The notes under the pieces were generated by a model, which searched no databases, was not told where the DNA came from, and was given only the letters and a program-made list of their open reading frames with translations. From an uncultured virus (IMG/VR IMGVR_UViG_3300037466_004244) (taxonomy: Duplodnaviria > Heunggongvirae > Uroviricota > Caudoviricetes): a stretch of 20,000 bases of DNA. The stretch lies in the IMG/VR virus record IMGVR_UViG_3300037466_004244; one strand, written 5' to 3'. A program made the position numbers and the translations under genes. Positions within the stretch are counted from its first letter, which is position 1. Each line of letters begins with the position of its first letter. Of this stretch, positions 1,476 through 20,000 are shown piece after piece.

Positions 1476-1760
1476 TCAACGTCTCCGCATGTTCGGGGGA
1501 GGAGTAGAGCGCAGCACCGGGAGCGGCGCTGCGGTATCGGCGGTGGGCGCGTTCTGGCGCGTCAGGTTGCAGGGCCGGCAGGCGAGCACGAGGTTCGACA
1601 GGTCGTTCCCGCCACCCGCGTCCTGTGAGACAAGGTGCTCGAGAGTCGCCCGCTCATCATCAGAGCAAGGGGGCTCCTTCAGCACCCGGCGGCACCAGTG
1701 GCACCGCAAGCCGTCGCGCGCGGCGACGAGGCGCCTCAGGGTCTTGTGGCTCCGGGACAT
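1476..1760 (-). CDS. Small HNH endonuclease (94 aa)
   Basis: RDGLRCHWC...ATLEHLVSQDAGGGNDLSNLVLACRPCN. Start moved to ATG 1760, which has a GGAGG SD. Confidence 0.88.
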   Translation of the reverse strand: MSRSHKTLRRLVAARDGLRCHWCRRVLKEPPCSDDERATLEHLVSQDAGGGNDLSNLVLACRPCNLTRQNAPTADTAAPLPVLRSTPPPNMRRR

Positions 1761-1884
1761 CGATCCTCCGGGTAACCGGGACGAGGGTGCCGGGGCGGTC
1801 GGCCCGCCCCGCAGGATGCTGTTGCGTCGTGTCTGGCTGTCCACCTTCCGTCCTGCGGTGGCGCCCGCGTTCAAGTCGCCAGAT

Positions 1885-1913
1885 TGGGTGGGGGCCTTTG
1901 GGGCCCCCACCCA
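1885..1913. other. Perfect 12-bp hairpin just downstream of the 1920..2039 stop
   Basis: TGGGTGGGGGCC-TTTGG-GGCCCCCACCCA. No U-tract on either strand. Confidence 0.7.
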
Positions 1914-2270: not shown

Positions 2271-3791
2271 ATGCGCGTTCGCCTCCGCAAGACTTCCGCC
2301 CCCGACGGCCTCCCGGCGAACCAGGCGCAGGTCTACCTCTCCTCTGCGGGGGTGATCCGCGTCGCGAAGGGCGACGGCACCGACATCAGCCTCGAAGGGG
2401 GCTCCGGCCCCACGCTCTCCGACGCCACCCCCGCCGACCTCGGCACCGCCGACGCGGGCGCCTCCGACGAAGCCTCGCGCGCTGACCACGTCCACGCGAT
2501 GCCCACGGCGTCGGACGTCGGCGCCGACCCCGCAGGCACGGCGTCCGCCGCTGTCACCGCGCACGCCGCGGCGACCGACCCGCACGGCGATCGTGCGTAC
2601 GCGTCCGGGCTCGTTACGACCGAAGCCTCGTCGCGTTCTTCCGGCGACGCGACGAACGCCGCCGCCATCACCGCCGAAGCCTCTGCCCGTGCCGCTGCGG
2701 ACGCTCTGCTCGTCCCCACCTCCGCCGCCTTCGCCGTCGCCCCGCTCGCCAGCCTGACCCTGACGAGCGCCTACGAGCTCATCGGCCCCCACATCGTCCG
2801 CAAGGTCGTCGCGACGGGCTTCGACGCCGACCCGCCGACGAACTGGACGCTGACGAACGGCAGCAAGCTGACGAGCCACAGCGTCTCCTCCGGCGTGCTC
2901 ACCATGCAGCACGACGGCACCTCGGCGGATGGCTACGGCAGCGGGACCAAGACCGCGCCGTACTACCTCCACACGCTCACGCCCCGCCCGACCGGCGTGC
3001 TCGAGATTGTCTGCCGCGTGCAGATGACCGCGAACGGCGGCGACGGCGACGCGGTCCGGTGGTACCTCGGGAGCGCCGAGGGCGGTGACTCGCTCGGCTT
3101 CGACATCCTCCGCGTGTCGTCCTCGTCGTTCTCGCTGCGGGTGTGGCAGAGCTCCACGGCGAGCACGATCCTCTCCGGCCAGACCTCCACGCAGGCGGCG
3201 ACGGGCTGGTGGACACGCCTGCTGGTGTACCCGAACGGCGACTACACCGCGCACTACGCCACGGGCTCCGGCTCCGAGCCCGCGGACAGCGCGTGGACCT
3301 TCGCGAAGTCCGGCAACTCGGCGCAGCTCGCGACCGCTGCGGCGGGAACGTGGGTGCTCACGCCGGTCGTCACGCGCGCGGCTGGCACGGGCGCGACCGG
3401 CACGTTCTGGCCGACCCGGCTGCGCGTCCTCGGCGGCGTCCCCGGCGTCAGCGGCTACACCCCCGGTGCGCTCCTCTACACCGCGAACAGCGCGCTCACG
3501 ACGCACAGCGACGCCTACGTGGGCGGGACCAGCGACGCGCGGCTCAACGCCTGCGTCCAGGCAATGCTGGCGAACGCGCTGAACCGGCTGCCGAACGACT
3601 CGGCGACGTGGGAGGTCACCGTACAGCGCCGGACCGCGGCGGGCAGCTACGGCGCCGCGTCGTGGACCGGCACGGGAGCGGTCGCATGCACGGGCTCGGG
3701 CGAGTTCGTCCAGATCCAGATCCGCGCGACGGGAACGGGCACGCAGGGGTCGGCCCTCTACGCCGCGCTCGCCTTCACGGTGTCGCCATGA
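2271..3791 (+). CDS. Tail-fibre-like virion protein (506 aa)
   Basis: Ala/Thr/Gly/Ser-rich, with tail-fibre-type motifs SRADHVHAMPTASDVGA and HAAATDPHGDRAYA, and a beta-rich C-terminal region. Strong GC3 bias; lies upstream of lysis-type genes. Confidence 0.7.
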   Translation: MRVRLRKTSAPDGLPANQAQVYLSSAGVIRVAKGDGTDISLEGGSGPTLSDATPADLGTADAGASDEASRADHVHAMPTASDVGADPAGTASAAVTAHAAATDPHGDRAYASGLVTTEASSRSSGDATNAAAITAEASARAAADALLVPTSAAFAVAPLASLTLTSAYELIGPHIVRKVVATGFDADPPTNWTLTNGSKLTSHSVSSGVLTMQHDGTSADGYGSGTKTAPYYLHTLTPRPTGVLEIVCRVQMTANGGDGDAVRWYLGSAEGGDSLGFDILRVSSSSFSLRVWQSSTASTILSGQTSTQAATGWWTRLLVYPNGDYTAHYATGSGSEPADSAWTFAKSGNSAQLATAAAGTWVLTPVVTRAAGTGATGTFWPTRLRVLGGVPGVSGYTPGALLYTANSALTTHSDAYVGGTSDARLNACVQAMLANALNRLPNDSATWEVTVQRRTAAGSYGAASWTGTGAVACTGSGEFVQIQIRATGTGTQGSALYAALAFTVSP

Positions 3792-10650: not shown

Positions 10651-11090
10651 CGTTCCTCCGTGGGCGTGAGGGTGGAGAGGGCGCGGCGGAGGTCGCCGAG
10701 CGTGATCTCGATCTCGCGGTCGCCACACCCGCTGCTCGCGATGACGGTCCAGTCCGGCTTGTCGGCGTCAAAGGCACGGACGAACATGGCGAACGGTGCG
10801 AGGGCTTCGCGCATCCGCTCCCATTCCCGCGCAAGCGCCGGGCCCATGGTGCGGGAGGCGGCGATGAAGGCGGCGTCAGGCCCGAAGACGTCGATGTCGG
10901 GGCTGTACTCGCCGCCCGCCGAGCCGTCGCTGTGGACGCGCATCTCGCCGCTGTAGAGCCCGTCGTCCTCGCCCGTGGGGTCGCCTCCGGTTCGGCGTTC
11001 GCGCCACTCCCACGGCCCCTCCGTCGCCCGCTCGGACTGCTCGAGGTAGGCGCGGACGGATTCGGGGGTGAGGGGGTTGGTCGGGGTCAC
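10647..11090 (-). CDS. Ead/Ea22-like phage protein
   Basis: ERATEGPW...DAAFIAASRT signature; GTGA overlap. Confidence 0.75.
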   Translation of the reverse strand: MTPTNPLTPESVRAYLEQSERATEGPWEWRERRTGGDPTGEDDGLYSGEMRVHSDGSAGGEYSPDIDVFGPDAAFIAASRTMGPALAREWERMREALAPFAMFVRAFDADKPDWTVIASSGCGDREIEITLGDLRRALSTLTPTEER

Positions 11091-11299
11091 GTCGTCTCCT
11101 TCTTCACAGCCTTCTTCCACCGCTTCGCCTTCGCCAGCCGCTCCGCGCCGATCGTCGCCGGCTTCTCGCCCGTCGCGTTGGCCTCGTCGCGGATGTTCTG
11201 CGCGAGCTCGGGCTTGAGGTTCAGGGTCAGCCGGTAGCGGTTGCCCTGCCGGTTGAACCCGTCCAGCGGCGGGAGCGGGCTGGGCTTCGGTTTCGTCAT
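11087..11299 (-). CDS. Small basic RHH-like regulator
   Basis: YRLTLNLKPELAQNIRDEANATGEKPATI; first gene of the leftward operon; extended -10 TGGTACGCT 6 nt upstream of ATG. Confidence 0.6.
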   Translation of the reverse strand: MTKPKPSPLPPLDGFNRQGNRYRLTLNLKPELAQNIRDEANATGEKPATIGAERLAKAKRWKKAVKKETT

Positions 11300-11305
11300 G
11301 GGGCG

Positions 11306-11349
11306 AGCGTACCACGGGGGCGGTTGGATAGCCACAAGATAGCTACAAG
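11306..11349. promoter_or_regulatory. Divergent control region with tandem 11-bp repeat
   Basis: ATAGCCACAAG/ATAGCTACAAG at 11328-11349; leftward extended -10 at 11306-11314. Confidence 0.6.
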
Positions 11350-11405
11350 AAACGTGTGGACGCTCGGGCGTTCGGCGTGGTAGAGGGGGAGGGTAGGAGC
11401 GACAC

Positions 11406-11837
11406 ATGGCAGATCACTGCGCCCACCTCGAATCCATCGCCGAGCGGCTGGAGGATGCCGCCGAGACGGGGCTCACCGCGCACGAGACCGCAGCACTCGC
11501 CGCGCGCATTCGGCGCATGCTTGAGCCTGCCGCTCCCGGGGCGATCTCCCCCGAAGCCCGCCGCGCCTTCCTCGCGTCGAGCCTCCTCGACCACAGGGGT
11601 GCGCTCACGACGAGCATGATCAGCACGCTCCTCAACCGCGGCATCGACTATGTCTGGCAGATGGCGGAGCGCCCCACCGGCTACAAGGCGGGTGAGCGCA
11701 ACGGGTTCATCCGGCTTCCAGGCGTCGGGCGCGTGACCTACGACGCATGCCTCGCGCTGTTGATGGCGCACGGGTGCTCGTTCGGGATGGCGGACGATCC
11801 GGACGTCGTCGCGCTGCGGGCCGAGGGTGCCCGATGA
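11406..11837 (+). CDS. Stand-alone RNA polymerase alpha-CTD-like protein
   Basis: LTTSMISTLLNRGIDYVWQMAER...FIRLPGVGRVTYDACLALLMAHGCSFGM aligns by eye to E. coli RpoA CTD [23 protein letters not shown]...[33 protein letters not shown] SD. Confidence 0.72.
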   Translation: MADHCAHLESIAERLEDAAETGLTAHETAALAARIRRMLEPAAPGAISPEARRAFLASSLLDHRGALTTSMISTLLNRGIDYVWQMAERPTGYKAGERNGFIRLPGVGRVTYDACLALLMAHGCSFGMADDPDVVALRAEGAR

Positions 11838-12118
11838 TCAGGCCCATCTCCCCCAGCGTCATGGACGCCCCGCCGCCGAACCTCGACCCCCACATCGAGC
11901 GCATCAACGCCGCGCTCGCCCGCCCGTGGACCGCCAGCGAGAAAGCGCACGGCCGGTCGATCGGGAGCCTCGGCCCGGATCAGGCGACACAGGAGGCGGT
12001 CGCGGCGGCCTTCCGTCGCGAGGGATGGAGCGTCGAGTACCTGTCGTCGCCTCGGCCGGATGACGGGTGCTGGACCTTCAAGCGGGCGATCGGGGCTGGT
12101 GTGTCGAGGGATTGCTGA
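11834..12118 (+). CDS. Hypothetical protein
   Basis: ATGA overlap; ...VAAAFRREGWSVEY...WTFK. Confidence 0.7.
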   Translation: MIRPISPSVMDAPPPNLDPHIERINAALARPWTASEKAHGRSIGSLGPDQATQEAVAAAFRREGWSVEYLSSPRPDDGCWTFKRAIGAGVSRDC

Positions 12119-12435
12119 TGACCCCCACCCGCCTCACCATGATCCGCACCATCGCCGCGAACTGCCGCGCGTCGGCCCGCCAGATCACGGGCCCGACGGC
12201 CGAGCAGCTGAACGTGGCGGCGGACGTGATCGGGGAGTTGATCGAGGAGACGACGCTGCTCGACCGGGTGAGGGCTCACCTCGGCGATCCTCTCGCGCAC
12301 CTACGTCTCGACCTGAACAGCGAGACGACCCGCTGGGTGCTCTGGACGCGCGAGCAATGGCGCCTCCCCCAGAAGTACGAAGGCGCCACCGAAGCCGAGG
12401 CCCTCGTTGCGGCCCTGGAGGCTCCCCGTGGCTGA
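12118..12435 (+). CDS. Hypothetical protein
   Basis: TGATG overlap; ends GATEAEALVAALEAPRG. Confidence 0.7.
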   Translation: MTPTRLTMIRTIAANCRASARQITGPTAEQLNVAADVIGELIEETTLLDRVRAHLGDPLAHLRLDLNSETTRWVLWTREQWRLPQKYEGATEAEALVAALEAPRG

Positions 12436-13844: not shown

Positions 13845-14089
13845 CGGAGATGCCCGCGACGGTGCCGGACTACGTCGTGATGCCGGACGGGCTGTCGCTG
13901 CTGGAGCAGATCCGGCTGGTGGAGGCGGTGGGGCCGGTGCTCCCGGTCGCGGGGCCGGTTGTCCACGAGCCAGAGCCGGAGCCGCCGCTGTTCGAGGGGC
14001 TGACGTGGGGCCCGCAGAAGCGCAGGTCGTTCGGGCCGCGCGAGCTCGTGGTGAAGGGGGCGGCGGCGAGGAGGAAGGATGACGCGTGA
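13838..14089 (+). CDS. Hypothetical protein (possibly C-terminal half of a frameshifted gene)
   Basis: 83 aa, GC3-rich, overlaps the next start. Confidence 0.55.
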   Translation: MVTEMPATVPDYVVMPDGLSLLEQIRLVEAVGPVLPVAGPVVHEPEPEPPLFEGLTWGPQKRRSFGPRELVVKGAAARRKDDA

Positions 14090-14480
14090 CCTCGTGCTCT
14101 GCATTGACGACGACGGCGACCGCTACGAGCGGTTCGTCCCGCTCTGCCGCGAGCGCGAGTGGCTCCCGCTGATCACGGACGAGCCGGCGGCAGCCGGGCT
14201 CTACCTCCGCGAGTACGGCGACCGCATCGTCGGCGTCTGCCTCGACCACGACATGCGCGAGCGGAACGGCGTGTGGTTCGCCCGGTCGCTGCTCGCCGAG
14301 CGGTCGTTCCCGGTCGCGATCGTGTCCGCGAACGTCGTGGGCGCGGAGAACATCGCCCGGGTGCTGACGGACTACGGCGTGATGTGGCTGAAGGCGCCCG
14401 CGTCGCACGACTCGACAGCGCCGCGGGGGCGGTGGGAGGCGCAGGCGGCGGCGTTCTTCGAGGGGCACTGGGATGGCTGA
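14079..14480 (+). CDS. Stand-alone receiver domain, cyclic-phosphate-processing (cREC) type
   Basis: VLCIDDD...VCLDHDM...NG...IVSANVVGAENI. LDHD and S-x-N-x-x-G are the hallmarks of the cREC_REC family. Confidence 0.75.
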   Translation: MTRDLVLCIDDDGDRYERFVPLCREREWLPLITDEPAAAGLYLREYGDRIVGVCLDHDMRERNGVWFARSLLAERSFPVAIVSANVVGAENIARVLTDYGVMWLKAPASHDSTAPRGRWEAQAAAFFEGHWDG

Positions 14481-14850: not shown

Positions 14851-15268
14851 CCCCTTCGCCACCGATCCCCCGTGGCCGCGTATCGCCGTTGTGGACCGCT
14901 CGAAGCGGAAGGCGAAGGACAAGCGGCCGATCGTTCTCGTGACCGGCGGCCGCGACTACGCCGACGCCGCCCGCGTGGACGCCGTCCTCTCCGAGATCCG
15001 CCCCGGCCTGCTGATCGAGGGCGGCGCGCGGGGCCTCGACACGCTGGTCCGCGAGTGGGGCGAGCGCAACGGGGTCCACGTCTGCGAGGTCCGGGCGCTC
15101 TGGGACGCCTACGGGAAGCGCGCCGGGCCGGTCCGGAACGGGGTCATGGTGGAACTCGCGCGGCGACTCGGCGCCCGGCTGGTCGCGTTCCCCGGAGGCA
15201 CGGGGACGGCAGACTGCGTGGAGAAGGCGCGGGTGGCGGGACTGGACGTCACGGTCGTCGGTCCGTAA
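14843..15268 (+). CDS. SLOG-superfamily protein (DUF2493/YspA-related)
   Basis: VLVTGGRDY...IEGGARGLD...YGKRAGPVRN...LVAFPGGTGTAD. Confidence 0.9.
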   Translation: MPDPFATDPPWPRIAVVDRSKRKAKDKRPIVLVTGGRDYADAARVDAVLSEIRPGLLIEGGARGLDTLVREWGERNGVHVCEVRALWDAYGKRAGPVRNGVMVELARRLGARLVAFPGGTGTADCVEKARVAGLDVTVVGP

Positions 15269-15321: not shown

Positions 15322-15525
15322 TCAGGACGGGTCCTCCAGCAACTCCCCCGGAATCGCCCGCTCCGGCACAGGCGGCAGGGGCTCCATCTCCAGCTCATCG
15401 AGCAGCCGCTCGAGGTTGAAGAGGGCGCGCTCGATCCGCGCGTGCGTGACGGGGTCGAGGTGGGCACCGTCGAGCGCCGCGAACGCCTCGTCGAGTTGCC
15501 GGCGCATCGTCGCGTCGGGCTTCAC
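15322..15525 (-). CDS. Small helical hypothetical protein
   Basis: GTGA overlap with the VOC stop; MKPDATMRRQLDEAFAALD... Confidence 0.65.
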   Translation of the reverse strand: MKPDATMRRQLDEAFAALDGAHLDPVTHARIERALFNLERLLDELEMEPLPPVPERAIPGELLEDPS

Positions 15526-15980
15526 GGCCGATCCCGGTGGGGCGGCAGGCGGTGGTCCTCGTAGAAGCGGACCAGGTCCGCGTCGGGGAGCAGGCGCGCG
15601 CGGTGCCACGCGTCCCGGTCGAGGATGTCCGCGAGCTCGTCCAGCATCGCCGCACGCTGGCGGGCCGCGCCGCTCTCGACCACGCCCACCCGGTTGCCCT
15701 CGGTGTCGAGCAGCTCGAGCAGCCCGTCGCGCGGCTTCCCGAGGCGCTTCCCGCCCGCGGCCTCGCCACGGCGGCGCGCGTCGTCGAGCGAGGCGACCGG
15801 GATGATGATCAGGGGCCCGGCCGTCGTCGGCTGGTGCCCGGGGCGCAGGCGGAACGCGACGCCATCCGCGCCGCGCAGGGTCGTCTCGTCGAGCGCCACG
15901 AGCCCGAGCGCCTCGTAGAAGCGTCGGGCGCGCGCGGTGTCGAGGACGGGGATGCCGAACGCGATGATGTCGCCGTGCAT
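15522..15980 (-). CDS. VOC/glyoxalase-family protein with short C-terminal extension
   Basis: IPVLDTARARRFYEALG...VASLDDARRRGEAAGG...LLDTEGNRVGV; start reassigned to ATG 15980. Confidence 0.8.
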   Translation of the reverse strand: MHGDIIAFGIPVLDTARARRFYEALGLVALDETTLRGADGVAFRLRPGHQPTTAGPLIIIPVASLDDARRRGEAAGGKRLGKPRDGLLELLDTEGNRVGVVESGAARQRAAMLDELADILDRDAWHRARLLPDADLVRFYEDHRLPPHRDRP

Positions 15981-16031
15981 CTGGGGGGAGGGTAGCGCGG
16001 CGAACGACGGGCCGCTGCCGACGGGGACGGG

Positions 16032-16225
16032 GTGTGGAGATGTGTGGAGAAACTGAGGAGAACCGGGCTCGTCCGGGCGGCGATTCCGGCTCTCCACATC
16101 GCTCCAAATTGACGTCAAGTGGTTGAAATCACATGGCTTCCCGCATGTGGCGGGACAGATATGCCCTGACTCCAGATCAGCCACGAACGCCGGCAATCGC
16201 GGGGTGGATCTCTCCACTGTGGAGA
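16032..16225. other. Putative attachment site (attP-like) with arm-type repeats and IHF-like site
   Basis: GTGGAGA-type repeats at 16032-16040, 16042-16050, 16091-16098 (inverted), 16211-16217 (inverted) and 16218-16225. Minus-strand TTTCAACCACTTG (16116-16128) approximates WATCAAN4TTR. Abuts the integrase stop. Confidence 0.65.
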
Positions 16226-17455
16226 TCAGCCGGTTCCCGAACGGAACGCGATCACGACGCCGAGGCGCGCGGCCGACACTGCTTCGTCCTGGTCCTCGAA
16301 CGTCGGCTGCTGGTACACGGCGTTCATCTCCTCGCTGTGCCCCTGCTGCGCGGACGCGGTCTTGATCGGCACCTTGCTCCGCGCCATCTCCGTCGCGCAC
16401 CAGCGGCGGATCGCGTGCGAAGTGAACCGCTGATCCTCCCCCGAGAGCTTGAGTCGCTCCGCGACCATGGCGCAGGCGTCCGGCAGCAGTTTCATCAGCC
16501 GGGAGACCGCCGACGCCGGCCGCACCCCGAGCACCCATCGCGCGCGCACCTCGGGGGCGATGGGTCGTGACCGCGTCACGGGGTCGGCCTCCCGATCGCG
16601 CCACGCGCGCAGGACCTCGGCGACCTCCGGGTGGATCGCTGCCGTCCGCTCGCCGGTCTTGCGGTTGCCGACGTAGACTCCGAGCCGGAGCGAGCGTCGG
16701 GCGAGGTCCACGTCGCGCCACTCCATCGCCGCGATCTCCCCGACCCGCGATCCGGTCGCGTACATCAGCCGGACGAGGAGGGCGTACCGCAGGGGGAGGA
16801 CCTCGATCAGCGTGAGGAGCTCCTCGCGGCTGGGCGTGCGCGTGGGGCGGACCGGCTTCGGCTTGAGCAGGTCTGGCTCGAGGTGGCGCAGCGGGCCGAG
16901 TTCGCGCTTGCGGCCCCACTTCCACGCCATCAGGAACACGGCGATGTCGTCGTTGATCGTCTTGTGGGCGTGACCCTGCTCGGCGCGGGCGAGCGCGTAG
17001 TCCTCGAGCGTGGAGCTCCGGACGTCCTCGATCGCCACGTCGCCGATCTGGTGGGGGCTCTCGGCGTTCGCGAGCCGACGCACGGAATGGCCGTACGCCT
17101 TGAAGGACCGGGGCTCGATCTCCTCGGCGGCGAGCCGCTTCCGCTGATGCGCCTTCCACGTCCCGAGGAGCTGGCGCACGTTCGCGACCTCACCGGTCGG
17201 GGTCGGGAGCGCCGGTCGGTCGGGCGCGACGACACCCGGGAGGCCCTTCTTCCGCCGGACGAGCGCGACCTCCGCAATCTGCTCCTTCGTGCCGCGGCCG
17301 AGGGTGAGGTGCCGCGTCTTTCCGCCAGCGGTGTAGTGGCCGCGCCACCACCACCGCGCGTCCCGTGTCGTCGGGGGCCGTTCCGGCTCGAGCGTCATCG
17401 CGGGCTCTCCCGGCAGCGCCGGCAGGTGGATCGGGTCAGGTCGGCGCTCAGCCAT
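16226..17455 (-). CDS. int: Tyrosine recombinase / phage integrase (409 aa)
   Basis: TGSRVGEI (R), RKTG (K), HAIRR (HxxR), QGHS (H), AVYQ (Y); N-terminal arm-binding-like and core-binding regions. Confidence 0.95.
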   Translation of the reverse strand: MAERRPDPIHLPALPGEPAMTLEPERPPTTRDARWWWRGHYTAGGKTRHLTLGRGTKEQIAEVALVRRKKGLPGVVAPDRPALPTPTGEVANVRQLLGTWKAHQRKRLAAEEIEPRSFKAYGHSVRRLANAESPHQIGDVAIEDVRSSTLEDYALARAEQGHAHKTINDDIAVFLMAWKWGRKRELGPLRHLEPDLLKPKPVRPTRTPSREELLTLIEVLPLRYALLVRLMYATGSRVGEIAAMEWRDVDLARRSLRLGVYVGNRKTGERTAAIHPEVAEVLRAWRDREADPVTRSRPIAPEVRARWVLGVRPASAVSRLMKLLPDACAMVAERLKLSGEDQRFTSHAIRRWCATEMARSKVPIKTASAQQGHSEEMNAVYQQPTFEDQDEAVSAARLGVVIAFRSGTG

Positions 17456-17461
17456 CTCCGG

Positions 17462-17491
17462 AGGCTACGTCACGCGCCCCGCGGAGGGCAA
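17462..17491 (-). promoter_or_regulatory. Leaderless promoter for integrase
   Basis: Minus strand TTGCCC-18 nt-TAGCCT-6 nt-ATG. Confidence 0.5.
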
Positions 17492-17496
17492 CCCGA

Positions 17497-17817
17497 TCAC
17501 GGCTCCTCGTAGGCCAGCGTGGACGGAGCGGGCCGACGTCGCGGCGGCGCCTGCGGGCTGTCCTCGGCGCCCATCGCGCGGAGCACGTCGCGCCATCGGT
17601 AGAGGTCGCCGCAGGGACCGGCAAGAACGCGGACGTTGCGCTGGACCCATGCGCGGACGTCGACCTCGCGCCCCGGGATGAGTTCGCAGACGTCGTCGAG
17701 GGAGAGGAGGGCGTCGCCGGTCACGGCCGCCCGGCGGATGTCGCGGAGCCACGGCCGCAGCGCGCGCACGAACGGCGCGAGCCACGACGGGGCCGCGGGG
17801 GATCCGCCGTCCGCCAT
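17497..17817 (-). CDS. Excisionase-like winged HTH protein
   Basis: LLSLDDVCELIPGREVDVRAWVQR...LYRWRDVL; directly upstream of int. Confidence 0.65.
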   Translation of the reverse strand: MADGGSPAAPSWLAPFVRALRPWLRDIRRAAVTGDALLSLDDVCELIPGREVDVRAWVQRNVRVLAGPCGDLYRWRDVLRAMGAEDSPQAPPRRRPAPSTLAYEEP

Positions 17818-18219
17818 CTACGTGCCCTCCCCGCTCGCCTGCGACACGTCCACGAACATCGGAAACGGCAGGTCGCGCCGGAACTGCCGCGCGGTCAGGT
17901 CCACGATGACGCCGTCGATCACGGCGACGACGTGGCCGCTGTCGTGTTCTGGGTGGCCCCACTGGTAGCAGCGCGTCCACGTCGGCAGCGGGTCGGCGTC
18001 CTCGACCATCCCGCGTGCTCCGTCCGGGCGGCAGTAGCCGTACACGAAGTCGAGGTAGAGCAGGTCGCCACGCCCTACCCGCTCGACCAGTTCGCGCGAG
18101 GCGTTGCGGCAGAACCCGGCGCAAGCGTCGTCATCCTCAACCAGGGCGCGGAGCCCGCCGTCGAAGATGCGGTCAAGGTGCGGCTCCACGAGCGCGCGAA
18201 CGGTGGCGATCCGGTCCAT
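17818..18219 (-). CDS. Papain/transglutaminase-fold protein (Cys-His-Asp)
   Basis: AGFCRNAS...GHVVAVIDGVIVDLTARQF; TGATG overlap. Confidence 0.65.
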   Translation of the reverse strand: MDRIATVRALVEPHLDRIFDGGLRALVEDDDACAGFCRNASRELVERVGRGDLLYLDFVYGYCRPDGARGMVEDADPLPTWTRCYQWGHPEHDSGHVVAVIDGVIVDLTARQFRRDLPFPMFVDVSQASGEGT

Positions 18220-18419
18220 CACCCCACCCCCATCACAACACCGACCCGCCCCGGCCGGCCCTGCGTCGGCGCGTGGGTCGCGAGCAGCGCGTACGCCTGC
18301 GGCACGTCGTCTCCGAGGCACAGCACGCGCGCGCCGATCCGGACGTGCCAGCCGCAGGGGCGGACAGTCAGGGGCAGGGCGAGGACGCGGGCGACGAAGA
18401 GGAGGTCGGAGGGGGTCAT
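18219..18419 (-). CDS. Hypothetical protein
   Basis: ATGA overlap, GGAGG SD, 66 aa. Confidence 0.6.
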   Translation of the reverse strand: MTPSDLLFVARVLALPLTVRPCGWHVRIGARVLCLGDDVPQAYALLATHAPTQGRPGRVGVVMGVG

Positions 18420-18988
18420 GCGATCCTCCGAAGCGGCGACCGCGACCACTCGTCCCAAGCGCGCCCTACCCCCCCCGTGCCCGGGAAGAGGTCGACGAAC
18501 GTGTCGCCGGGCTCAGCCCCGAGCGCATCGAACAGCCACCAGCACACGGCTTCCGGCTTCGCGCCCGACAGCCCGCGGCGGAGCGTGATGTTCGCCGACA
18601 CCCAGTCCCGCAGGCGAGGACGCGCGCGGCGGCGGGCCACCTGCTGTGGGTAGCCGGCGGCGATCCAGTCGCGGACCGTCGGCAGGTCACGCCCGCGGCG
18701 ACGGGCTGGCTTGATGTAGATCGGTTCCCACGCGTAGGCCAGCGTGACGTTCGGCTTGAAGCTGGCGAACGGCTTGACCCACGGACAGACGCGGACGCCG
18801 TCGGGGAGCAGCGGGATGACGTACCGCATGGCGTCCAGATCCGCGCCGGACGAGAGCGCCCACCCGTCGCTCGTCGCCTCGAGGTCCGCGATCAGGGCGG
18901 CGTGATCCACTTCGGCGCACCGCGGGTCGTGGCTGTAGTGCTTCACCGCCTGCTTCGGGTAGGGCGGGTCGGCGTAGTGGAGGATCAC
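18416..18988 (-). CDS. Orphan amino-DNA methyltransferase (beta-class motif order)
   Basis: N-terminal YADPPY (motif IV) and C-terminal KP...VDLFPGTG (motifs X-I); GTGA overlap at 18985-18988. Confidence 0.85.
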   Translation of the reverse strand: MILHYADPPYPKQAVKHYSHDPRCAEVDHAALIADLEATSDGWALSSGADLDAMRYVIPLLPDGVRVCPWVKPFASFKPNVTLAYAWEPIYIKPARRRGRDLPTVRDWIAAGYPQQVARRRARPRLRDWVSANITLRRGLSGAKPEAVCWWLFDALGAEPGDTFVDLFPGTGGVGRAWDEWSRSPLRRIA

Positions 18989-19629
18989 CGTCCGCCCCCA
19001 TCCGCCGCGAGGGCAGCGTCCGCGGCCTTCATGGCGGAGCGGGCGGTGTCGGCGTCGCAGAGGCGGCGGCATTCCGTCGGGCGCGTGTCGTCCGGCTCGC
19101 CGTTCCAGCGCTTGAACGTCGCGACCCATAGCGCGGGCTTCCAATAGACGGGGTCCGTCTCGTCCGCGGCGGTCGGCATGGTCCGCTCGACCAGTACCTG
19201 CCAGTCGTCCCGCTCCAGCCACCAGCACGTATCGGCGACGTACCACCCCACCGACGGCGGCTCGCCCTCGCCCCGCTCGTTCGCCAGCGTCGCGGCCAGT
19301 TCGTCGCGCTCCCGCGTGCGCTCGTCCAGCGTGGCGAGGAGGCGGGCGATGTCGTCCGTCTCGTGCCGCCCCACTGGGCGCGACCACTCCGAGCGGGCGT
19401 AGTGCTCGTCTGCAAGAGAACGGCCGGGCTGGTCGTCGAACGCCGACCACGCGCCGTTCCGCCAGTCGCCGCCTGGGCAGTTCCATTCCTCGCGGCCGTG
19501 ATCGACGGCCCCCAGAACCAAGGGGCGGCCGCAGACCCGGCATGGAGGGACCGGCTTGCGCGCGGAGCGGGTTGCGTTGAGCCGCGCGCGGATCTCCTCC
19601 ACCTCGGCGTCGGTCAGGGGCGGGGTCAT
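18985..19629 (-). CDS. Phage protein with Ea22-like helical frame and CxxC insert
   Basis: LTDAEVEEIRAR...CRVCG...DDIARLLATLDE plus coiled coil; ATGA overlap. Confidence 0.65.
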   Translation of the reverse strand: MTPPLTDAEVEEIRARLNATRSARKPVPPCRVCGRPLVLGAVDHGREEWNCPGGDWRNGAWSAFDDQPGRSLADEHYARSEWSRPVGRHETDDIARLLATLDERTRERDELAATLANERGEGEPPSVGWYVADTCWWLERDDWQVLVERTMPTAADETDPVYWKPALWVATFKRWNGEPDDTRPTECRRLCDADTARSAMKAADAALAADGGGR

Positions 19630-20000
19630 CGCTTCTCCAAAAGGTGGGCGCCCCGCTCGATCGCCTCCGCCAGCGCCTCGGGCACGTCCCGCAGGCCGCC
19701 GAGCAGGGAGTCGAGGGCGGATCCGGGCGGGTGCTTCTCGTCGAGTGCCGCGACGGCGTCCAAGGCTTCCTTGAGCCCGCAGCGCGTCGCCTCGCGGTAC
19801 GCCTTCACCCGGCGGATCCGGCTGGGCTGTCCCGCCGCTTGCGACACAATGTCGATGAGCGCGGCAACGAGTTGCCTCGCCTCCCCCGCCTCGACCTGCC
19901 ACCGCGTCCGCTCCTGCCGCTCCCGGGTGAGGTCGGCGGCGTAGGCGTCGCGCTCGGCGATCAGTTCGCGGAACCCGAGCCGGAAGAGGATCCGGTGCCC
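19626..20000 (-). CDS. Partial gene (5' end outside window) with ribosomal bL12 CTD-like motif
   Basis: The frame is open to the window edge. RIRRVKAYREATRCGLKEALDAV resembles the L7/L12 consensus KI.[20 protein letters not shown]. Confidence 0.65.
   Translation of the reverse strand, partial: GHRILFRLGFRELIAERDAYAADLTRERQERTRWQVEAGEARQLVAALIDIVSQAAGQPSRIRRVKAYREATRCGLKEALDAVAALDEKHPPGSALDSLLGGLRDVPEALAEAIERGAHLLEKR

What the first reader, a model, noticed from the sequence alone, without database searches (positions are those of the whole stretch)
11406..11837. Phage-encoded RNA polymerase alpha-CTD mimic with DNA-binding residues lost
Seen: the C-terminal ~75 aa keep the alpha-CTD hydrophobic pattern through to G.S.GM. 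In my manual alignment the positions matching E. coli R265, N268 and K298 (UP-element DNA contacts, established) read S, S and V, and a 7-residue loop is inserted before the HhH motif. It is the first gene of its operon and has a short helical N-terminus. Inference: a decoy that titrates alpha-CTD partners (class I activators, NusA, or a defence sensor) rather than binding DNA.
Basis: partly seen in the sequence, partly recalled or inferred. Interest (0 to 1): 0.72.

Follow-up and report, generated by a model that had tools for sequence, protein, structure and literature searches.

The report
Phage alpha-CTD-like protein lacking DNA-contact residues

Summary
ORF 11406-11837(+) is a real 143-aa gene: GC3 is 0.85, an AGGAG lies 6 nt upstream, and three homologues share the frame. 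Residues ~65-129 are a diverged RNAP alpha-CTD. The family profile pulls alpha-CTDs from the PDB (11 of 13 hits). hhalign to E. coli RpoA 260-317 gives E 1e-4. No shuffle out of 3000 matches the real scores. The ESM Atlas model matches PF03118 clusters at TM 0.72.

In addition N294->G and E302->A, and the sigma-contact patch (258-261) is missing.

The family is tiny, with four clusters among 5.8 billion. Its most distant member keeps all DNA-contact residues, so the loss is recent and lineage-specific. All four share the insertion and an invariant tail, ADDPDVVALR.

Free alpha-CTD-like proteins are common in viral contigs (60 loci), and those keep the DNA determinants and the normal spacing.

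The "decoy" reading is only partly supported. DNA reading is probably lost, but the known partner-binding patches are altered too, so faithful mimicry is not shown. A neofunctionalised protein-binding module is my best guess. Residual non-specific DNA binding through the canonical LPGVGR hairpin remains possible.

The parts
11406..11837 (+). ORF of 143 aa (stop included); first gene of the rightward operon
   Evidence: homologues P0002-P0004
11395..11399 (+). AGGAG ribosome-binding site, 6 nt before the ATG
   Evidence: read directly
11406..11597 (+). N-terminal acidic helical region (residues 1-64); no family; possible oligomerisation or partner module (inferred)
   Evidence: helices in both AF2 models (low confidence); only generic helical neighbours in the Atlas
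11598..11792 (+). alpha-CTD-like double helix-hairpin-helix core (residues 65-129), aligned to E. coli RpoA 260-317
11676..11699 (+). Family-specific 7-residue insertion (within residues 91-98) between helix 2 and helix 3, at the place of the E. coli 287 determinant
   Evidence: I275-to-G296 spacing is 28 in 4 of 4 family members, against 21 in 4 of 4 references and in 44 of 48 viral domains
11715..11738 (+). Second hairpin L-P-G-V-G-R-V-T (residues 104-111): canonical HhH motif; N294->G106, K298->V110, S299->T111
11790..11822 (+). Tail A-D-D-P-D-V-V-A-L-R (residues 129-138), invariant in all four family members; E140 is also invariant
11300..11405 (.). Divergent intergenic region holding a tandem 11-bp repeat at 11327-11348 (likely operator/promoter region, inferred)
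   Evidence: no sigma-70 consensus promoter found
11087..11299 (-). Divergently transcribed 70-aa ORF with a basic tail. I read it by eye as ribbon-helix-helix-like; no profile hit
   Evidence: Pfam none at E<=1
11834..12118 (+). Next gene of the operon (94 aa); its start overlaps the stop of the target ORF (ATGA)
   Evidence: no family

Best explanation
This is the first gene of a roughly 3.9-kb early-type operon in a phage or prophage-like element from soil. It encodes an acidic helical N-terminal region joined to a diverged copy of the RNA polymerase alpha C-terminal domain.

Shown: the domain is homologous to alpha-CTD. In this protein and its closest relative, every side chain that alpha-CTD uses to read or hold UP-element DNA is replaced. 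The most distant family member keeps them all. All four members share a 7-residue insertion and an invariant tail, ADDPDVVALR.

Inferred: the lineage gave up minor-groove DNA reading. It now uses the alpha-CTD fold as a scaffold for protein contacts through the insertion-plus-tail surface, which lies where E. coli alpha-CTD has its activator-contact (287) patch. The likely target is the host transcription machinery or a regulator of the phage switch. It is a neofunctionalised derivative, not a faithful copy of the host domain.
For: Homology.

Loss of DNA determinants: at positions 265/268/294/298/302 the residues are S/S/G/V/A in the window protein, A/H/G/V/A in P0002, R/S/G/V/A in P0003 and R/N/N/K/E in P0004. 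The four reference domains read R/N/N/(K or R)/E. The roles of R265, N294, K291 and K298 come from PMC7822876 and PMC5101437.

Charge: the pI of residues 61 to the end is 5.5-6.9 in the three members that lost the residues, and 9.9 in P0004.

Family-specific conserved features: the tail A129-R138 and E140 are invariant, and G92, E97 and G100 in and next to the insertion are invariant, across members down to 39% identity. The 28-residue hairpin spacing occurs in 4 of 4 family members and in 0 of 48 viral alpha-CTD-like domains.

Position: first gene after a divergent intergenic region, with an ATGA overlap into a chain of small + strand genes. The element carries an integrase and an HNH endonuclease.

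Precedent that phages act on alpha-CTD function: T4 Alt and ModA modify R265 (PMC2988021), and phage G1 gp67 blocks alpha-CTD/UP-element contacts (PMC3694059).
Against: - No partner is known and no binding was tested.
- The window protein does not hit PF03118.
- Both AlphaFold2 models were poor (pLDDT 53.5 and 48.6). Fold support therefore rests on sequence profiles and on the Atlas's own model.
- The hairpin LPGVGR fits the canonical HhH motif, and R103 (K291) and R109 (K297) are invariant basic residues, so backbone-level DNA binding may survive.
- E. coli alpha-CTD is itself acidic overall (11 K+R against 15 D+E), so the pI contrast is weak evidence.
- The placement of the insertion and tail on one surface is inferred from E. 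coli numbering, not from a structure of this protein.
- Host unknown.
Confidence: 0.4

Rival explanations
1. Faithful decoy. The domain imitates the host alpha-CTD and titrates its partners, such as class I activators, NusA or a defence sensor.
For: It is an alpha-CTD homologue with the DNA-reading residues lost. It is an early-operon gene in a phage-like element. Phages are known to interfere with alpha-CTD function.
Against: The 261 determinant is absent and the 287 determinant is split by the insertion (definitions). Core identity to real alpha-CTDs is only 13/57 to 17/57. The strongest conservation is in features that alpha-CTD lacks. The host RpoA is not available for comparison.
Confidence: 0.15
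2. Still a DNA-binding protein. A (possibly dimeric) HhH protein binds DNA non-specifically or recognises structure through backbone contacts. It could serve as an early regulator at the switch region or as a DNA-metabolism accessory factor.
For: The second hairpin LPGVGRVT is the canonical HhH motif, and the only non-alpha PDB hits are the endonuclease III HhH. R103 and R109 are invariant basic residues. P0004 keeps the full DNA determinant set, so the ancestral family function probably involved DNA. The gene sits in the 'cro position' beside a divergent small gene and a tandem 11-bp repeat.
Against: R265, N268, N294 and K298 are all replaced. Loss of R265 function alone abolishes UP-element contact in E. 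coli (PMC2988021). The C-terminal half is near-neutral or acidic in the three members that lost the residues. The N-terminal region is acidic (pI 5.5).
Confidence: 0.3
3. A decaying or functionless remnant of a captured alpha-CTD gene.
For: The family is very small. Canonical functional residues are lost.
Against: The frame is intact and the coding GC3 signal is strong. The RBS is good. A 10-residue tail and many core positions are invariant across 39-77% identical relatives. In four other soil or rhizosphere runs the ORF shows only one difference, a synonymous change at 11810.
Confidence: 0.05

Closest known systems
C-terminal domain of the bacterial RNA polymerase alpha subunit (RpoA alpha-CTD, Pfam PF03118; e.g. 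PDB 1lb2, 3k4g, 1coo)
   Same: Same double helix-hairpin-helix core. It aligns to E. coli residues 260-317, including L262, the G-I-x-Y hairpin, G296 and the G-x-S-x-G-M ending. Relative P0004 is 27/57 identical to a genuine RpoA CTD from an rpsK-rpoA-rplQ operon (L002).
   Different: It is not attached to an alpha N-terminal domain. R265, N268, N294, K298 and E302 are replaced, and the 261 patch is absent. It has a 7-residue insertion and an extra invariant acidic tail. The window protein scores below the Pfam threshold.
Free-standing or fused alpha-CTD-like proteins of phages (Bacillus phage vB_BmeM-Goe8 gp005; Ruegeria phage vB_RpoS-V16 gp23; 60 IMG/VR loci)
   Same: An alpha-CTD-like domain outside RpoA, in viral genomes, in small proteins or fusions of 64-793 aa.
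   Different: These keep R265 (48 of 48) and N268 (45 of 48). Both counts are biased, because the search patterns required these residues. At positions the patterns did not cover, they keep K/R298 (42 of 48), E302 (43 of 48), N294 (33 of 48) and the 21-residue spacing (44 of 48). The window family does not. I found no paper on the function of any of them.
Canonical helix-hairpin-helix motif, as in endonuclease III (PDB 1orn, 1p59)
   Same: The hairpin L-P-G-V-G-R-x-T is near-identical to the endonuclease III motif aligned.
   Different: Only this one hairpin matches (E 0.33-0.42). The rest of the domain aligns to alpha-CTD, not to a glycosylase.
Phage factors that disable alpha-CTD/UP-element function (T4 Alt and ModA; S. 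aureus phage G1 gp67)
   Same: Early phage products aimed at the alpha-CTD arm of host transcription (PMC2988021 and PMC3694059; passages seen). This is a functional analogy only.
   Different: They are an ADP-ribosyltransferase and a sigma-binding protein, with no sequence relation. No activity has been shown for the window protein.

Membership tests
RNA_pol_A_CTD (PF03118) | Profile match at or above Pfam's gathering score | tested here: not met
   The window protein has no PF03118 hit at E<=10. Relative P0004 scores 23.5 bits against a cut-off of 23.8, E 4.7e-5.
RNA_pol_A_CTD (PF03118) | Significant profile or sequence similarity to solved alpha-CTDs over the whole domain | tested here: met
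   11 of 13 PDB hits are alpha-CTDs. hhalign E 1.1e-4 over 58 columns. 0 of 3000 shuffles reach the real scores in either direction, except Goe8 gp005 against the family HMM, where 2 of 3000 do.
RNA_pol_A_CTD (PF03118) | alpha-CTD fold (two HhH, four to five helices) | tested here: inconclusive
   The ESM Atlas's own model matches PF03118 clusters at TM 0.72. My two AlphaFold2 models had pLDDT 53.5 and 48.6, and Foldseek on one of them found nothing at E<=0.001.
RNA_pol_A_CTD (PF03118) | DNA-binding '265 determinant' (R265, N268, N294, G296, K298, S299) | tested here: not met
   The window protein reads S, S, G, G, V, T. Only G296 is kept, and S299 is conservatively T.
RNA_pol_A_CTD (PF03118) | '261 determinant' acidic patch (D258, D259, E261) that contacts sigma region 4 | tested here: not met
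   Gap, gap, A66. The definition comes from PMC1874639.
RNA polymerase alpha subunit (RpoA) | N-terminal dimerisation and assembly domain (RNA_pol_A_bac / RNA_pol_L) linked to the CTD | tested here: not met
   Residues 1-64 match no family. No longer form was found, though the tool rates that as weak evidence.
Canonical HhH motif (HHH clan) | Hairpin h-P-G-h-G followed by a helix | tested here: met
   L104-P-G-V-G-R109 aligns to the endonuclease III HhH.
Phage-borne free alpha-CTD-like proteins (uncharacterised group) | alpha-CTD-like domain outside RpoA, encoded on a viral or mobile element | tested here: met
   Integrase, HNH endonuclease and a module shared with viral contigs lie in the window. 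Comparable proteins occur in 60 IMG/VR loci and in two isolated phages.

The most novel reading that the evidence does not exclude
This would be the first alpha-CTD-derived protein to have swapped DNA reading for protein capture. On this reading, a phage early protein uses the alpha-CTD scaffold plus a new insertion/tail surface to bind a host transcription component or regulator. It would thereby reprogramme or blind alpha-CTD-dependent promoter control. P0004 would be the still DNA-binding ancestor-like form, giving a natural series from DNA binder to pure protein binder.
Probability: 0.2. Interest if true: 0.8.

Novelty: new variant of a known kind. Interest (0 to 1): 0.48.

Why it matters
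alpha-CTD is the main docking point for activators and UP elements on bacterial RNA polymerase. Phages are known to attack it chemically (T4 Alt/ModA) or sterically (G1 gp67).

Free copies of the domain turn out to be frequent in viral contigs, yet I found no functional study of any of them. This family offers a natural contrast within one scaffold: one member has the full DNA-contact set and three have lost it, while all share a new invariant surface. That contrast makes the question "what are free alpha-CTDs for?" experimentally approachable.

If the protein binds a host factor, it would define a new class of phage transcription modulators. If it merely binds DNA non-specifically, it is a minor variant of a common domain.

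Tried and rejected
Structure
- AlphaFold2 on the single sequence gave pLDDT 53.5 and on alignment A1 gave 48.6. Both are too poor to use.
- The homodimer test with complex prediction gave no verdict (score 0.38, mark 0.42, collected).

Direct family and structure look-ups for the window protein
- Direct scans gave nothing usable. Pfam returned only Arg_decarbox_C at 17.3 bits, below its 23.3 cut-off and on a helical A/E/R-rich stretch, which I judged spurious. PHROGs, the PDB by phmmer and NCBIfam returned nothing.

Search for family members
- P0005 from the representative search is a 1131-aa repeat protein. It matches residues 68-98 in 8 stretches, and I rejected it as a chance match to a Y-x-W-Q-x-A-x-x-P-x-G-Y string.
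- Pattern scans found no family member in genome contigs or viral contigs. The metagenome scan found only a true rpoA, L002.
- No longer forms were found.
- tblastn of the protein and of P0004 against phage records gave no match.

Context and host
- Megablast of the whole window against phages and plasmids gave no match.
- The integrase has only distant phage relatives at <=30% identity, and none in genome contigs or viral contigs.
- tblastn of the 506-aa ORF against phages gave nothing.
- No whole genome is held for the window, so the host RpoA could not be compared.
- No tRNA and no Rfam family were found to mark an attachment site.
- No consensus promoter or terminator lies in 10900-12300.
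- Earlier notes of this scan held nothing by place or by sequence.

Expression and literature
- No RNA holder was listed among the sequencing runs.
- Literature searches for phage or free alpha-CTD homologues returned no relevant paper.

Full report
THE GENE

The window is 68-77% G+C per kilobase, so most six-frame ORFs are spurious. Codon-position G+C picks out 11406-11837(+): 0.71/0.54/0.85 at positions 1/2/3, and the sliding frame plot agrees. The only start in the open frame is the ATG at 11406, with AGGAG at 11395-11399.

The stop overlaps the ATG of the next + strand ORF (ATGA at 11834). A chain of small, tightly packed + strand ORFs then runs to about 15268. Upstream lie 106 bp of intergenic DNA and a divergent 70-aa ORF (11087-11299, minus strand). 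'First gene of its operon' is therefore right.

In four further soil or rhizosphere runs the ORF is almost invariant. The single listed difference, 11810 C>T, is a third-position Val-to-Val change. One contig carries seven differences in the intergenic stretch 11294-11352.

THE FAMILY

The word-indexed search of 5.8 billion clusters found the protein itself plus two relatives, P0002 (77%) and P0003 (60%). Exhaustive phmmer over 1.84 billion representatives added P0004, 169 aa at 37-39% identity. It also returned a repeat protein, P0005, which I reject as a chance match. A profile search found the same four, and a search for longer proteins found none.

Pattern scans of GTDB genomes and IMG/VR found no member. 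The JGI metagenome scan returned only a genuine rpoA inside an rpsM-rpsK-rpoA-rplQ operon (L002). The family is thus very rare.

All four members share the start of the protein, many core residues, and an invariant tail A-D-D-P-D-V-V-A-L-R followed by E140.

IS IT AN ALPHA-CTD?

The window protein alone hits nothing in Pfam, PHROGs, NCBIfam or the PDB. Five lines of evidence still point to alpha-CTD:
- The four-member profile finds 13 PDB sequences at E<=10. Eleven are alpha subunit or alpha-CTD chains (best E 0.022) and two are the endonuclease III HhH.
- P0004 alone finds six alpha-CTDs among nine hits. It hits PF03118 at E 4.7e-5, 0.3 bit under the gathering score. JGI names it an alpha subunit.
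- hhalign of the family against E. coli RpoA, taken from NC_000913.3, aligns residues 65-129 to RpoA 260-317 with E 1.1e-4 and probability 56%.
- In a shuffle control, the family HMM scores E. coli alpha-CTD at 14.9 bits, the L002 RpoA CTD at 37.3 and Ruegeria phage V16 gp23 at 11.9, with 0 of 3000 shuffles as high. Goe8 gp005 scores 6.4, with 2 of 3000 as high. Conversely, an HMM of those four reference domains scores the window protein 11.7, P0002 10.3, P0003 17.6 and P0004 38.6, against a best shuffle of 5.2.
- The ESM Atlas holds this exact protein. Its own model (pLDDT 0.74) matches three PF03118 clusters at TM 0.72 over residues 60-143.

My own AlphaFold2 runs failed to give a usable model (pLDDT 53.5 and 48.6), and Foldseek on one of them was empty. 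I take homology as well supported. The fold is supported, but not by an independent confident model.

THE FUNCTIONAL RESIDUES

hhalign and MAFFT agree on the register.
- In E. coli, R265 and N294 enter the UP-element minor groove, and K291 and K298 make salt bridges with the backbone (PMC7822876, passage seen; also PMC5101437).
- The window protein has S70, G106, R103 and V110 at these places. It has S73 at N268, T74 at C269, T111 at S299 and A114 at E302.
- P0002 reads A/H/G/V/A at positions 265/268/294/298/302. P0003 keeps only R265. P0004 keeps all five.
- The four reference domains keep R, N, N, K or R, and E.
- The acidic 261 patch that contacts sigma region 4 is missing: gap, gap, A66. 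The patch is defined in PMC1874639 (passages).
- The 7-residue insertion falls between positions 285 and 287, inside the 287 activator-contact patch.
- The spacing from the first hairpin (I275) to the second (G296) is 28 in all four family members. It is 21 in all four references and in 44 of 48 viral alpha-CTD-like domains, where the largest value is 25.

CONTEXT

The window carries several phage-like features:
- A tyrosine integrase at 16226-17455(-): PF00589 at E 3.9e-18 and phrog_1 at 1.8e-44.
- An HNH endonuclease at 1476-1910(-).
- A cREC_REC-like receiver at 14079-14480(+).
- A YAcAr/SLOG protein at about 14927-15268(+).
- The 506-aa ORF 2271-3791(+), whose N-terminal ~150 residues have relatives in 113 IMG/VR stretches. 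By eye it looks like a tail-fibre N-terminus, but that reading is recalled, not tested.

No capsid, portal or terminase gene lies in the window, and nothing matches sequenced phages or plasmids at the DNA level. 'Phage-encoded' is likely but not proven. An integrative element of another kind is not excluded.

The DNA occurs in rhizosphere and soil metagenome runs. The host could not be identified.

HOW UNUSUAL IS A FREE ALPHA-CTD?

It is not unusual. tblastn with the E. coli CTD finds such domains in Bacillus phage vB_BmeM-Goe8 gp005 (210 aa, annotated 'RNA polymerase subunit alpha') and in Ruegeria phage vB_RpoS-V16 gp23 (288 aa, fused to a pyrophosphatase). Many of the other 24 records look like host rpoA fragments.

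A profile scan of IMG/VR found 60 loci. Their ORFs are 64-793 aa, four of them open at the 5' end, and none has the RpoA layout. Among 48 distinct domains:
- R265 is kept in 48 and N268 in 45. These two counts are biased, because the search patterns required those residues.
- At positions the patterns did not cover, K/R298 is kept in 42, E302 in 43 and N294 in 33.

Earlier notes of this scan also report free alpha-CTD proteins in CPR bacteria and phages, with no study found. I confirmed the phage part here.

Five literature searches found no paper on such proteins.

The kind is therefore known from annotation but uncharacterised. What is new in this family is the loss of the whole DNA determinant set, together with the insertion and the tail.

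MECHANISM

Shown:
- Homology to alpha-CTD.
- Replacement of the DNA-reading residues in three of four members.
- Conservation of the insertion and tail in all four.
- Early-operon position.

Inferred: because the features common to all members are the N-terminal helices, the insertion and the tail, while DNA-contact residues are dispensable, the core activity is probably a protein contact made by the insertion/tail surface. DNA tethering would be an ancestral extra, retained in P0004.

I put about 0.4 on this reading. I give 0.3 to residual DNA binding through the canonical LPGVGR hairpin and the invariant R103 and R109. I give 0.15 to a faithful decoy of the host domain, weakened by the altered 261 and 287 patches and by only 23-30% core identity. 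I give 0.05 to a decaying remnant.

Phage precedent for attacking the alpha-CTD arm of transcription exists: T4 Alt and ModA act on R265 (PMC2988021), and G1 gp67 blocks alpha-CTD/UP-element contacts (PMC3694059).

WHAT REMAINS OPEN

The following are all unknown: the fold by an independent confident model, any binding partner, DNA binding, the oligomeric state, the host and its RpoA, and the gene neighbourhoods of the three relatives.

Noticed in passing
window 11327-11348: Tandem 11-bp direct repeat (two units, 10 of 11 identical, one helical turn apart) in the divergent intergenic region. It is a candidate operator. One soil-run contig carries 7 substitutions across 11294-11352, while the flanking ORF is nearly invariant.
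   Followed up: partly
window 11087-11299 (-): 70-aa ORF divergent from the target gene, with a strand-helix-helix-looking core and a lysine-rich tail. By eye it is a ribbon-helix-helix-type repressor candidate, but no Pfam hit appears at E<=1.
   Followed up: partly
window 14079-14480 (+) and about 14927-15268 (+): The same operon ends with a cREC_REC-like receiver domain (PF20274, 27.1 bits against a cut-off of 27) and a YAcAr/SLOG protein (PF10686, E 3.8e-12). Both domains are linked to nucleotide-signal processing, so they may be counter-defence cargo.
   Followed up: partly
window 2271-3791 (+): 506-aa ORF with GC3 0.93 and no Pfam, PHROG or NCBIfam hit. Its N-terminal ~150 residues recur in 113 IMG/VR stretches. 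By eye it is a tail-fibre-like N-terminus joined to a variable C-terminal domain.
   Followed up: partly
window 15522-20000 (-): A run of minus-strand genes surrounds the integrase (16226-17455). By eye these include a glyoxalase/VOC-like ORF (about 15525-15995, Pfam E 0.018), a small excisionase-like ORF (17497-17817) and a DPPY-motif DNA methyltransferase-like ORF (about 18419-18985, Pfam E 0.33). None passes a curated threshold.
   Followed up: partly
L002 1532-2536: A genuine RpoA from a metagenome ribosomal-protein operon carries G-I-E-Y-V-W-Q-L in its CTD, the same string as the family. It scores 37.3 bits against the family HMM, compared with 14.9 for E. coli. This hints at which RpoA lineage the family was captured from.
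   Followed up: no
L113, L114, L118, L132 (IMG/VR): Viral contigs encode 605-793-aa proteins with an alpha-CTD-like domain in the middle, an architecture unlike RpoA. I did not examine them further.
   Followed up: no
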